Assembly: GCF_024223415.1 (NCBI RefSeq) | Contig: NZ_CP100500.1 | From: Escherichia coli | Lineage (GTDB): Bacteria > Pseudomonadota > Gammaproteobacteria > Enterobacterales > Enterobacteriaceae | Length of the DNA: 64,000 bases | Reading direction: 5' to 3' (one strand) | Part shown: positions 27,001 through 30,000 of the stretch, piece after piece | Numbering within the stretch: position 1 is the stretch's first letter | Layout of the letters: each line of letters begins with the position of its first letter | Position numbers: made by a program

Positions 27001-30000
27001 CTCTTTTGTCGATCATCGATATGGGCAAAGAAATGCAGCTAAAAAGCTTATACGTTATTTATTTAGAATACACTACGACTTTTAGATTACCATCATACAC
27101 ATTAAGAATAATCCACGGTAATAAGTGATTAGCATCACAGATTTATCGCGTATATATCATTTTTTTGTGACTTATTTATTAAAGGAATAAGGAAGGTAAT
27201 TTGAATTAAAGACAAAGGCGCAGTACAGGAAGTACTGCGCGCAGAGAGGTGTTATACGGTTTTATTGCGCTTCATGACCATTGCCACAATAAGGCTGAGT
27301 AAGATTGCACCAATAATCCATATCAACGCACGGCTGCCCTGGGACCACAGGCTGTAGATAAAGCCAACGATCACCAACAACATCACCAACGTACCAACGA
27401 TAAGAATCGGCAACGAGGCGTGAATATCATGACGCAGGCGGATCGCCACCACAAACACCGCCAGATAGCAGATCAAAAAGGTGGCGCTGGCAACGCTGGC
27501 GAGTGAGCCTAAATTCAGCGCCGCCGTCATCAGCATAATCAACACCACGACAATAATGTTGCCCCAGGTACTCTGCCGCCACAGGGATTTATTCATTAGC
27601 TTCGGTAGTTCGCGTTCGCTGCCCATGTTGTCCATGATGTTAAACACGGCGAACAGGTTCGCGTTGATGGCTGAAGCCGTCGCCAGTAAAGCGCCGATGA
27701 CAACGATCACATAACCCACATGCCCGAGCAGCGGAGAAGCAGCCTGCGCTACGGCGGTATCGGCATATTTTTCTAACTCTAATGCCGATACATCGCTAAG
27801 CAAAACCAGCGCCAGCGAGATATAAAGCAACGTGGTAACGCCAATTGCCACCAGAAACGCCCGTGGCATAATGACCTGCGGATCTTTCACTTTATCCGCC
27901 GCGTTCGCCATCATGCCAAAGCCCGCATAGGCAAGGAAGGTTATCCCGATACAGGAGAAGAACGCACCGGAGCTGGGGGGCGCAGAGACGGAAATATGCG
28001 CCGGTTGCAGCGACCAGACACCAGCAATAATCAGCAATAACAGGATCATCATTTTAATGCCGACGAGGATCACTTCCAGCCGCCCTACCGCATGGTTGCT
28101 TAAGGAGTTGAAAAGCGTCATCACCGCAATGATCCCCAACGCGTAGAGCAAAATAAGGTGCTCCTCCTGGCTGCCTTCATGCAAAAACTGCACGGCATAA
28201 GCGCCAAAAGCACGGGCAACCATGGCGATGCTCACCGCCAGCGTCAACAGGTACAGCAACGAGAGCGCCAGCGAAAAGACGCCGTTGCCTAATCCGCGAC
28301 GAAAAAAGTCGATAATACCGCCATTGCTGGGATAGCTCGCCCCCAGACGCGCATAGGCATAACCGGAAAACATCGCCACAATACCGCCAAAAGCAAAGGC
28401 GACCCAGGTCGAGGCTTCCATTAGCAACGCAGCCTGCCCCAGCAGCGCGAAGATCCCCGCCCCCACCATTGCCCCAATACCGATGGAAACGACATTCCAT
28501 AGACCGAGGGGTTTGTTACCGTTATTACCTTCCGTGTTCATCATGATCAGCCCTTAAACACGTTATAGCCGAGTTGCTTAGCGACCGATGCCACCATTTT
28601 TTGACCGCGAACACTGTTGCCATCTTCGTCCAGCGGTGGTGAGAACGCGGCAATTCCCATCACGCCAGGGACGACCGCCAGAATACCGCCACCTACACCG
28701 CTTTTGCCCGGTAAACCAACGCGATACGCCCAGTCACCGGAGCGACCATACAGCCCTTCCATCATCATTTCGGCCAGAATATACGGCACGTTGTCGGCCT
28801 GAAGAACGCGTTCATGCGTCAGCGGATTCACCCCCCCCGCCGCCAGCGTCGCGCCAAGCGTTGCCAGTTCAACAGTATTGATGAGCGTGGAGCACTGACG
28901 GGTGTACACGTCACAGGCTTCCATTGCATCACAATAGAGATATCCGGCGGAGTACAGCAGCCAGGCAATGGCCCGGTTATGGAAGTTGGTTGTTTGTTCC
29001 GACTGGTTGACTTCGTCAGAGAGCGCTACCAGCTCACCAGCCAGTTGCTGTTGGATATGTAAAATTCGCTGCCAGCGTTGTTCGGCATTTTCAGCGTTAA
29101 TCAGGCTGGTGGTGGCAATAGCGCCAGCATTTACCAGTGGCGACAGCGGTTTGCCGCCATGCAACTCTAAGGCGATAACTGAGTTAAAGGGCAATCCGGT
29201 CGGGTCAGCGCCAATTTTGTCCTGTACCGCCTGCGGGCCGACATCTTCTAACGCAAGGGCTAACGTACAGACTTTCGAGATGGATTCCAGCGCAAAGCGG
29301 TAATCACTGTCACCCGCACTATAGACGTTGCCATCGCAGGTCACGATAGCCACTGCCGCCAGTTGACCTGGTACATTCGCCAGAAAGGGAATGTAATCGG
29401 CATTTTGTCCGCCGTTAAGTGAGTGAAATTGGGTGTAAGCCTGATCCACTGCCTGCTGTAATTTGTTTGCATCTAACATCTTTTGTTAACTCCTTTTTAT
29501 AGATGCGGGAGGTAATTCCTCACCCCGGTGCCGATTTTCAGGCATCCTGATTTAACTTAGCACCCGCAACTTAACTACAGGAAAACAAAGAGATAAATGT
29601 CTAATCCTGATGCAAATCGAGCCGATTTTTTAATCTTTACGGACTTTTACTCGCCTGGGTTATTAATTTCTTGACCTTCCCCTTGCTGGGGACAAAGAAC
29701 TGCGTGGTGTAAAATAACACCACGCAATATCAATAAGTTACATAACCACTTTAACTCTCTACCTCCCTTTTTCCTCAAAATGTGGACACTCAATGGACAT
29801 ATCACATAGCGGATTATGCATCACAGCATCGCTTAAATAATCCGGCGAAAAATGCGCATAAGTCATTGTCTGAGATATATCTGCATGACCGAGGATTTTT
29901 TGAAGAGAAATAATATTCCCCCCATTCATCATAAAATGGGTGGCAAATGTATGCCTCAATACATGAACCGCTTGACCGTCCGGCAAATTAGGCTTAGCCA

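What the first reader, a model, noticed from the sequence alone, without database searches (positions are those of the whole stretch)
29480..29758. Prophage integrase end lies only about 280 bp upstream of the glsA start
The integrase stop is 280 bp from the glsA start codon, so the prophage probably displaces sequence upstream of the glsA-ybaT acid-resistance operon. A hairpin GCGTGGTGT-AAAATAA-ACACCACGC sits just 3' of the integrase. Insertion here could change regulation of glutamine-dependent acid resistance.
Basis: inference. Interest (0 to 1): 0.3.

Follow-up and report, generated by a model that had tools for sequence, protein, structure and literature searches.

The report
P2-like prophage inserted in copA promoter
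The gap between the integrase and glsA is the left end of a P2-like prophage that has inserted into the copper-sensor (CueR) binding site of the neighbouring copA promoter, carrying its own copy of that site so the promoter is rebuilt, and it leaves the known glsA control region untouched.

Summary
The int stop and the glsA start are 279 bp apart (29480-29758). An inverted repeat lies at 29702-29725, but its loop is AAAATA, not AAAATAA.

Comparison with 5,402 empty-site E. coli genomes puts the host/phage boundary at 29689/29690, 210 bp upstream of glsA. That point is inside the CueR operator of the divergent copA promoter.

The 20-bp core CTTGACCTTCCCCTTGCTGG holds the copA -35 hexamer plus the left half-site and spacer of the CueR dyad. 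It is repeated at the other prophage end in near-identical lysogens, so copA keeps a complete promoter.

The published GadX/GadW footprint for glsA (-75 to -42) lies inside the retained host DNA.

Integrases 60-100% identical use the same core in at least three host backgrounds. In one of them cueR, not glsA, is the neighbour, so the target is the copA promoter.

The hairpin is phage DNA. It is a conserved, covarying RNA stem-loop on the int-sense strand, probably the 3' end of the C-int lysogenic transcript. Its U-tract is weak, so read-through into glsA is not excluded.

This is a new member of a known kind: P2-type site-specific integration with an attB I could not find reported.

The parts
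28547..29479 (-). glsA (glutaminase A) coding sequence. ybaT follows at 27252-28544.
   Evidence: ORF list; Pfam Glutaminase 1.9e-107 and AA_permease_2; RefSeq annotation of homologous loci.
29480..29669 (.). Retained host glsA-copA intergenic DNA, essentially as in K-12 and other E. coli genomes. It contains the glsA 5' UTR and promoter. The published GadW/GadX ChIP-exo footprint maps to about 29521-29554.
   Evidence: Alignment with the empty K-12 site and other lysogens; PMC4918353 supplement. The conversion of U00096.2 coordinates to the window is my inference.
29670..29689 (+). attL core CTTGACCTTCCCCTTGCTGG. It holds the copA promoter -35 TTGACC (29671-29676), the CueR left half-site ACCTTCC (29674-29680) and the 7-bp dyad spacer CCTTGCT (29681-29687). 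Host homology ends at 29689.
   Evidence: Megablast against 5,422 genomes stops at query position 790, which is window 29689. The K-12 sequence continues aaggtttaacc. The same 20 bp sit at the copA-side junction of strain CM2 and, as 28 bp, in lineage 2.
29690..29758 (.). Phage DNA of the int-side attachment arm, between the core and the int stop.
   Evidence: Absent from empty-site genomes and present in all 17 lysogens. The gap is 58-70 nt in all related lineages.
29699..29728 (-). RNA stem-loop in the int 3' UTR: 12-pair stem, 6-nt loop, tail UCUUUGUCCC.
   Evidence: Terminator-like scan; fold. Across 7 lineages, 97.1% of cells pair on the int-sense strand against 88.6% on the other strand, and 7 of 10 pairs change on both sides.
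29728..29740 (+). Match to the IHF consensus WATCAANNNNTTR (TATCAATAAGTTA), directly next to the hairpin.
   Evidence: Read from the sequence. Similar matches occur at the same place in lineage 2, L043, L045 and L051. This is a consensus match only.
29781..29800 (+). Two direct arm-type Int sites, TGTGGACAC and TGGACAT, inside the 3' end of int.
   Evidence: Same sequence and position as the annotated P2 Int arm site actgtggacactgtgtggacac in AF063097. A matching pair TGGACACtacgTGGACAC sits on the other arm in CM2 and lineage 2.
29759..30802 (-). P2-type tyrosine integrase. The probable true start is M11, at 30772.
   Evidence: Pfam Int_N plus Phage_integrase. It is 46% identical to P2 Int, with the R, K, HxxR, H and Y catalytic residues aligned.
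30842..31141 (-). C-like immunity repressor (99 aa), upstream of int on the same strand.
   Evidence: Annotated as helix-turn-helix in CM2. Its DNA aligns to the 'C protein / immunity repressor' of P2-like phages. Pfam found nothing.
31135..31163 (+). Pe-like early promoter, TTGACA-17-TATAGT, abutting the C start codon as in P2.
   Evidence: Promoter scan, 11 of 12 matches; P2 annotation geometry.
29690..64000 (.). P2-like prophage body. It includes replication endonuclease gpA (35677-38166), portal and terminase (41377-44183), capsid, tail and late control D genes, and ogr (about 63144-63395). It runs off the window. By comparison with CM2 the copA-side junction lies roughly 0.8-1.3 kb beyond 64000.
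   Evidence: Annotation of the 99%-identical CM2 prophage. The core-to-core distance in CM2 is 35.6 kb, computed.

Best explanation
The interval is attL, the integrase-side junction of a roughly 35.6-kb P2-like prophage. Its bacterial attachment site is the CueR operator and -35 region of the copA promoter, which in E. coli lies 190-210 bp upstream of the divergent gene glsA.

Shown here:
- Host sequence runs unbroken from glsA to 29689 and ends 2 bp into the right half of the CueR dyad (ACCTTCC-N7-GGAAGGT).
- The last 20 bp, CTTGACCTTCCCCTTGCTGG, are also carried by the phage. They recur at the other junction, directly followed by aaggtttaacc...ATG(copA). copA therefore keeps an intact -35 / CueR box / -10.
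- On the glsA side only the -35 and half an operator remain, facing into the prophage.

Inferred: the heterobivalent Int binds the TGTGGACAC arm-type sites on both arms and the core. Together with IHF it exchanges strands inside the shared core, probably in or near the 7-bp dyad spacer, because identity stops immediately to its right in every lineage.

It is a conserved RNA stem-loop in the 3' UTR of int. In P2 the lysogenic promoter Pc drives C and int. The same C-then-int order is present here, so I take the hairpin to mark or protect the 3' end of that lysogenic transcript before it enters host DNA. It would act as a weak intrinsic terminator or a 3' stabiliser.

The net expected effect on the host is small. 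copA regulation should be preserved by the rebuilt promoter, and the glsA promoter and GadX/GadW site are preserved because they lie in untouched DNA.
For: Junction and occupancy:
- Homology to 5,422 genomes ends at window 29689.
- The empty site is intact in 5,402 of 5,422 genomes.
- 17 genomes carry an int at exactly this junction, in two lineages of about 99% and 83% identity.

Core duplication and rebuilt copA promoter: seen in CM2, H1827/12 and the IMG/VR attR forms L047 and L052. An attP form, L042, has arm repeats, then core, then hairpin.

The target is the copA promoter, not glsA:
- L045 and L051 have a CueR ortholog (77% aa identity) starting 8 bp from the core.
- L049 and L053 have a glsA flank only 88.9% identical to K-12.
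- The integrases that share this core form a 60-100% identity group.
- All other relatives are at most 53% identical, and none lies next to glsA, copA or cueR.

P2-type machinery:
- Gene content of the prophage.
- Int domains and catalytic residues.
- Arm-site sequence identical to the annotated P2 arm sites.

Hairpin.

glsA sites retained: PMC4918353.
Against: - The copA-side junction of this particular genome lies outside the window. Its state is inferred from 99%-identical prophages.
- No experiment shows that the rebuilt copA promoter behaves normally. DNA upstream of -35 is replaced by phage DNA.
- The crossover position, IHF use and the Pc location are inferred by analogy.
- The hairpin's U-tract is poor in most lineages (AGUACUUAAAAAA, AUUUGAAAA, CAUUAAUAAA), so efficient intrinsic termination is doubtful.
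- In P2 the corresponding interval is annotated as Cox-binding, so the same DNA may have a second role.
- Three of the 20 genomes with a disrupted empty site were not identified.
Confidence: 0.85

Rival explanations
1. One reading: the insertion changes regulation of glsA-ybaT, the glutamine-dependent acid-resistance operon. It could do so either by displacing upstream regulatory DNA or by driving transcription into glsA from the prophage.
For: int and glsA are co-directional and only 279 bp apart. By analogy with P2, the lysogenic C-int transcript is made in lysogens. The hairpin tail is only moderately U-rich here and poor in sister lineages. Everything beyond -210 is foreign DNA.
Against: The mapped GadW/GadX/RpoS site and the TSS lie 42-75 bp from the ATG, well inside the 210 bp of untouched host DNA. 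In the empty site, what lies beyond -210 is the copA -10, 5' UTR and coding sequence, not known glsA sites. A stable 12-bp stem-loop stands between int and glsA. In other hosts the same phage family sits next to cueR, so glsA is an incidental neighbour.
Confidence: 0.12
2. The hairpin is not mainly a terminator. It is a cis-acting RNA element for post-transcriptional control of int, for example a binding site for Int on its own mRNA as reported for P2, or a processing or stability determinant.
For: The stem-loop, not the U-tract, is the conserved part. The stems covary, and every internal non-Watson-Crick pair is G.U on the int-sense strand. P2 itself has an int-sense stem-loop between the core and the int stop, without a U-tract. 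Yu et al. 1994 (J Virol 68:4220) is cited in PMC11789052 as a viral protein autoregulated by binding its own mRNA. I could not read the original paper.
Against: There is no sequence similarity between the stems of different lineages, so a shared sequence-specific protein site is unlikely unless it co-evolves with Int. The window's own copy passes a terminator-like scan. Nothing here tests binding.
Confidence: 0.3
3. The inverted repeat acts as double-stranded DNA. It would be a protein-binding palindrome in the attachment arm, such as a site for a Cox-like directionality factor or another accessory protein, rather than an RNA structure.
For: In P2 the interval between the core and the int stop is the annotated Cox-binding region. 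The repeat lies at a fixed distance of 12-15 bp from the core in all lineages and next to an IHF-like consensus.
Against: A DNA palindrome should tolerate mismatches equally on both strands. Here all 7 internal non-Watson-Crick cells are G.U on the int-sense strand and A.C on the other, giving 63/63 against 56/63 internal cells paired. P2 Cox boxes are direct repeats about one helical turn apart, not a single palindrome (PMC3936717).
Confidence: 0.1

Closest known systems
Bacteriophage P2 Int / attP system (Peduoviridae; AF063097)
   Same: Gene order is ogr - att - int - C - early operon. Int is 46% identical, with the same domains and catalytic residues. The arm-type sites TGTGGACAC are the same, one pair lying inside the int 3' end. 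IHF-type consensus sites occur. A short core is shared with the host site and duplicated at both junctions. An int-sense stem-loop lies between the core and the int stop.
   Different: The core sequence and target differ. From my own knowledge, P2 uses AAAAAATAAGCCCGTGTAAGGGAGATT at locI and related sites. This clade uses the copA -35 and CueR operator. The nearest integrase in INPHARED is only 53% identical, and the arm DNA of two sister lineages has no match there. The IHF-like match next to the hairpin is on the int side, whereas the annotated P2 IHF site is on the ogr side.
Temperate phages whose attP carries a copy of the target's end so the host function is restored (tRNA-gene and icd integrators such as P22, P4, 186, phage 21/e14; own knowledge)
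   Same: The logic is the same. The phage picks a short, highly conserved host sequence and carries a replacement copy, so that integration does not inactivate the host function.
   Different: Here the duplicated segment is not the 3' end of a gene. It is the upstream part of a promoter (-35 plus a transcription-factor half-site), and the restored element is a regulatory site rather than a coding or RNA sequence.
MerR-family CueR operator of PcopA (Outten 2000 and Stoyanov 2001, own knowledge; PMC5329002 for CueR binding the extended -35/-10 spacer dyad)
   Same: The empty site shows TTGACC, then a 19-bp spacer containing ACCTTCC-N7-GGAAGGT, then TAACCT. At the copA-side junction of lysogens the whole element is present.
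   Different: At the window's attL only the -35 and the left half-site survive. The right half reads GGGGACA, 2 of 7 matches, so CueR binding there is not expected. Sister lineages keep GGgAGGT, 6 of 7.
Lambda sib / int retroregulation (own knowledge)
   Same: Both are RNA structures 3' of int that affect how the int message ends.
   Different: Lambda sib lies beyond attP and is separated from int by integration. This hairpin lies between int and the core and stays linked to int in both the phage and prophage forms. Its stem of 10-12 bp is short for an RNase III site.

Membership tests
P2-like (Peduoviridae) prophage | Characteristic gene set and order: int-C next to att, replication endonuclease gpA, portal Q/terminase P divergent from O-N-M-L, tail genes, D and ogr next to the other att end | tested here: met
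   Annotation of the 99%-identical CM2 prophage and matching window ORFs. DNA similarity of int-C to P2, pro483 and others.
Heterobivalent tyrosine integrase (lambda/P2 Int type) | N-terminal arm-binding domain plus C-terminal catalytic domain with R-K-HxxR-H-Y | tested here: met
   PF24624 Int_N (2.3e-25) and PF00589 (3.3e-19). R206, H280, R283, H306 and Y315 are invariant in the alignment with P2 Int. Activity was not tested.
P2-type attachment site | Core shared by phage and host and present at both prophage junctions | tested here: met
   20-bp core (lineage 1) and 28-bp core (lineage 2) at attL and attR. An attP form is seen in L042. The window itself shows only attL.
P2-type attachment site | Direct arm-type Int sites on both arms | tested here: met
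   TGTGGACAC/TGGACAT at 29781-29800; TGGACACtacgTGGACAC on the other arm in CM2 and H1827/12. Identical motif in the annotated P2 arm sites.
P2-type attachment site | IHF site and Cox boxes used in recombination | tested here: inconclusive
   IHF consensus matches at 29728-29740, and with one mismatch on the other arm. These are consensus matches only. Cox boxes were not searched, and no cox homologue was assigned.
Intrinsic (Rho-independent) terminator | G+C-rich stem-loop immediately followed by a U-tract | tested here: inconclusive
   The stem is met in all 7 lineages. The window copy has 5 U in 8 and passes the scan. The sister lineages have poor U-tracts. No transcript ends were mapped.
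CueR-regulated promoter (MerR type) | 7-7-7 dyad inside a 19-bp -35/-10 spacer | tested here: not met
   This applies to the copy at the window's attL. The left half and spacer are kept, but the right half-site is replaced by GGGGACA. The feature is met at the copA-side junction in related lysogens, which is outside the window.
   The GadW/GadX ChIP-exo peak at -75 to -42 and the TSS lie in host DNA that is essentially the same as in empty-site genomes. Unmapped sites beyond -210 cannot be excluded.

The most novel reading that the evidence does not exclude
The attachment site coincides with a transcription-factor operator that CueR occupies in both its apo and Cu(I) forms, and the Cu(I) form distorts it. 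Copper status and CueR occupancy could therefore gate integration at attB and excision at the copA-side junction, which would be a metal-responsive lysogeny decision.

In sister lineages the phage carries almost the whole CueR box (GGgAGGT) followed by a -10-like hexamer. attP and attL would then hold a second CueR-type promoter firing antisense into int under copper stress.

A weaker form of the idea is that lysogeny subtly retunes copA, through the changed DNA upstream of -35, or retunes glsA through read-through.
Probability: 0.1. Interest if true: 0.7.

Novelty: new member of a known kind. Interest (0 to 1): 0.35.

Why it matters
It corrects what the insertion touches: the copper-efflux promoter, not the acid-resistance operon.

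It defines a previously uncatalogued attachment site for a clade of P2-like integrases. The site is a 20-28 bp non-coding sequence, kept constant by RNA polymerase and CueR constraints, and it is usable across several enterobacterial hosts.

That has three uses. It helps prophage boundary calling. It adds a candidate integrase/att pair for genome engineering. And it is a clean natural case of a phage that targets a transcription-factor operator and repairs it.

The practical consequence for the host is probably small. The site is occupied in only 17 of about 5,400 complete E. coli genomes.

Tried and rejected
- I searched the window for the copA-side half of the promoter. There was no match, because the far junction is beyond 64000.
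- I scanned species-representative genomes with the integrase. Only relatives of 52% identity or less turned up, and none lies beside glsA, copA or cueR. The collection therefore gave no extra examples of this attB.
- Megablast of sister-lineage arm DNA against INPHARED phages found no match.
- I asked whether a hairpin after int is general among distant relatives. The picture was mixed and confounded by host tRNA and terminator hairpins, so I did not use it.
- Lineage L043/L044 is not present in the complete E. coli genome set. The three disrupted-site genomes not accounted for by the 17 lysogens remain unidentified.
- Literature searches for a copA/cueR/glsA prophage attachment site found nothing relevant.
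- The key P2 paper on int regulation (PMC236345) is not held.
- Rfam has no family at the hairpin.
- I rejected the idea that the attL remnant in this window is a working CueR promoter, because its right half-site matches at only 2 of 7 positions.
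Full report
OBSERVATION

On the minus strand the window encodes ybaT (27252-28544), glsA (28547-29479), a tyrosine integrase (29759-30802) and a 99-aa C-like repressor (30842-31141). The interval between the int stop and the glsA start is 29480-29758, 279 bp.

The inverted repeat is real and lies at 29702-29725: GCGTGGTGT-AAAATA-ACACCACGC.

WHERE THE PROPHAGE BEGINS

A 2-kb query across the region matches 5,422 of 5,426 complete E. coli genomes. In all but 17 of them the match stops at query position 790, which is window 29689.

The empty K-12 site (L001) reads ...ttattaatttCTTGACCTTCCCCTTGCTGGaaggtttaacctttatcacagccagtcaaaactgtcttaaaggagtgttttATG(copA). The window reads ...CTTGACCTTCCCCTTGCTGGggacaaagaactGCGTGGTGT....

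So 210 bp of native DNA remain upstream of glsA. The break falls inside the palindrome ACCTTCC-N7-GGAAGGT, which sits between TTGACC and TAACCT of the divergent copA promoter. From my own knowledge (Outten 2000, Stoyanov 2001) this palindrome is the CueR operator in the 19-bp spacer. PMC5329002 confirms that CueR binds the dyad in the extended -35/-10 spacer of copA.

The empty site is intact in 5,402 of 5,422 genomes, so occupation is rare.

WHAT THE INSERT IS

The 99.5%-identical locus in strain CM2 is annotated with these genes: integrase, HTH repressor, replication endonuclease, portal, terminase, GPO scaffold, P2-family capsid, gpM, tail and baseplate genes, late control D and ogr. This is a P2-like prophage.

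The core-to-core distance in CM2 is 35.6 kb. The window ends before the far junction.

At the far junction in CM2 the sequence is ...TGGACACtacgTGGACACtgattaaataatcctttcttaatcagactgttaaaatgCTTGACCTTCCCCTTGCTGGaaggtttaacc...ATG(copA). The 20-bp core is therefore a direct repeat at both ends, and copA keeps a complete -35 / CueR box / -10. Only the DNA upstream of -35 is replaced.

A bidirectional-looking terminator hairpin precedes the arm sites on that side.

A FAMILY OF PHAGES USES THIS SITE

The 17 E. coli lysogens fall into two lineages. Five are about 99% identical to the window and twelve about 83%. Both break at exactly the same position. Lineage 2 shares 28 bp with the host.

An exact-core scan of IMG/VR gave 12 loci:
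- an attP form, L042;
- attR forms next to copA, L047 and L052;
- attL forms next to glsA, from E. coli-like hosts (97% identity) and more distant hosts (88.9%);
- attL forms L045 and L051, whose host flank is a CueR ortholog (77% aa identity to E. coli) starting 8 bp from the core.

The common denominator is therefore the copA promoter. glsA is only the E. coli neighbour.

The integrases at these loci are 60-100% identical to the window's. All other relatives found are at most 53% identical. They come from INPHARED and from one genome per species, and none lies by glsA, copA or cueR. Sister-lineage arm DNA has no INPHARED match. Literature searches found no report of this attB.

ARCHITECTURE COMPARED WITH P2

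In AF063097 the annotated order is: ogr, terminator, Int arm site, IHF, core, Cox region, int stop, Int arm site inside int. The P2 arm sites read tgtggtcaatgtgtggac and ctgtggacactgtgtggacac.

The window has TGTGGACACtcaaTGGACAT at 29781-29800, inside the int 3' end. The far arm has TGGACACtacgTGGACAC.

Int is 46% identical to P2 Int, with the catalytic R, K, HxxR, H and Y aligned.

An IHF-consensus match (TATCAATAAGTTA, 29728-29740) abuts the hairpin and recurs in most lineages. A one-mismatch match lies on the other arm. These are consensus matches only.

In sister lineages the base after the core reads gAGGTT where the host has aAGGTT, so their attP holds almost the entire CueR dyad. This suggests, by inference, that Int core-type binding exploits this palindrome. 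It also suggests that strand exchange lies in or near the 7-bp spacer, since identity ends just to its right in every lineage.

THE HAIRPIN

The hairpin is phage DNA, 30 nt past the int stop and 9-12 nt from the core. On the int-sense strand it forms a 12-pair stem. The region folds far better than shuffles, z = -3.6.

All seven distinct lineages have a 10-12 bp stem-loop at this position, with different sequences. On an ungapped alignment of the int-sense strand:
- 97.1% of cells pair;
- 7 of 10 pairs change on both sides;
- 0 of 500 shuffles reach the covariation score;
- slid controls collapse.

On the opposite strand only 88.6% of cells pair. The seven internal exceptions are A.C or C.A mismatches there, which are G.U pairs in the int-sense RNA. 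That asymmetry argues for an RNA structure on the int transcript and against a duplex-DNA palindrome.

The U-tract is moderate here (UCUUUGU) and poor elsewhere. P2 has an analogous int-sense stem-loop without a U-tract.

In P2, Pc drives both C and int (PMC3936717). I therefore take the stem-loop to be the 3'-end element of the lysogenic C-int transcript. It may be a leaky terminator, a stabiliser, or an autoregulatory element of the kind attributed to P2 Int by Yu et al. 1994. That paper is cited in PMC11789052, but I could not read it.

CONSEQUENCES FOR glsA

Seo et al. (PMC4918353) report that GadW, GadX and RpoS bind the ybaS promoter. The ChIP-exo peak is at 510790-510823, and its centre is 11.5 bp from the TSS.

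With ybaS starting at 510865 in that coordinate version, the peak is -75 to -42 from the ATG. This rests on my conversion: 511641 in the current version minus a 776-bp offset. In window coordinates it is about 29521-29554, which is 135 bp inside the retained host DNA.

What the prophage displaced from glsA's far upstream is the copA -10, leader and gene. No glsA element is known there.

The remaining route to an effect is read-through from int, which only transcript mapping can settle.

VERDICT

The region is a standard P2-type attL. Its noteworthy feature is the target: a transcription-factor operator plus -35 that the phage duplicates and so repairs. The same site is used by a coherent integrase clade in several hosts, and I could not find it catalogued.

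I rate it a new member of a known kind, of moderate-to-low interest. A speculative but testable extension is that CueR and copper modulate integration or excision.

Noticed in passing
window 4679-25456 (-) and 25559-26914 (-): A 6,925-aa ORF with a BapA_N prefix domain, many Big_13/Big_6 Ig-like repeats, FG-GAP repeats and an RTX nonapeptide near the C-terminus. A TolC-like outer-membrane efflux protein lies beside it. This is a giant type I-secreted adhesin island. It lies where K-12 and CM2 have cueR directly after ybaT.
   Followed up: partly
window 34757-34831 (+) and 34867-34954 (+): Rfam matches above gathering score to isrK Hfq-binding RNA (59.8 bits) and C4 antisense RNA (79.2 bits), side by side in the prophage early region.
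   Followed up: no
window 63440-64000; L003 7980-8960 (CM2): Between ogr and the copA-side attachment arm there are three to four tandem modules of about 200-450 bp. Each ends in a near-identical terminator, ttttgcccgccggaaagcgggcattttt, and each is preceded by a shared motif (...gtagattaac...). They look like repeated small-RNA or cargo cassettes. Rfam gave no hit at gathering threshold.
   Followed up: no
window 38163-41310: Variable cargo region between gpA and the portal gene. It holds a DUF6516 protein plus an HVO_A0114/MarR-like regulator, an HTH_3 protein next to a RelE-family toxin (as annotated in CM2), and 136-aa and 234-aa ORFs with no Pfam match. This is the position where P2-like phages often carry defence or toxin-antitoxin cargo. 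It was not scanned against PADLOC.
   Followed up: partly
L045 and L051 (IMG/VR), position 400-427: In this host the cueR start codon lies only 8 bp from the attachment core. Integration there replaces essentially the whole cueR upstream region with phage DNA, so an effect on the regulator gene itself is more likely than in E. coli. The host genus was not identified.
   Followed up: partly
L037/L041 (E. coli H1827/12): The lineage-2 element in this blood isolate is a decayed prophage: truncated replication endonuclease, IS421, ParM/partition genes, and a DNA methyltransferase with an internal stop. Both att junctions and int are nevertheless intact.
   Followed up: no
literature, PMC4391916: In pigmented Serratia marcescens the prodigiosin (pig) cluster is reported to be inserted between cueR and copA. 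The cueR-copA intergenic region is therefore an insertion point for foreign DNA in another genus too. Whether the breakpoint is the same was not examined.
   Followed up: no
E. coli genome set: Among the lysogens listed, poultry sources are frequent: CM2, CS5L, Ch1, GF60 chicken meat and strain 135 chicken faeces. The numbers are too small for any claim, and this was not tested against the sampling background.
   Followed up: no
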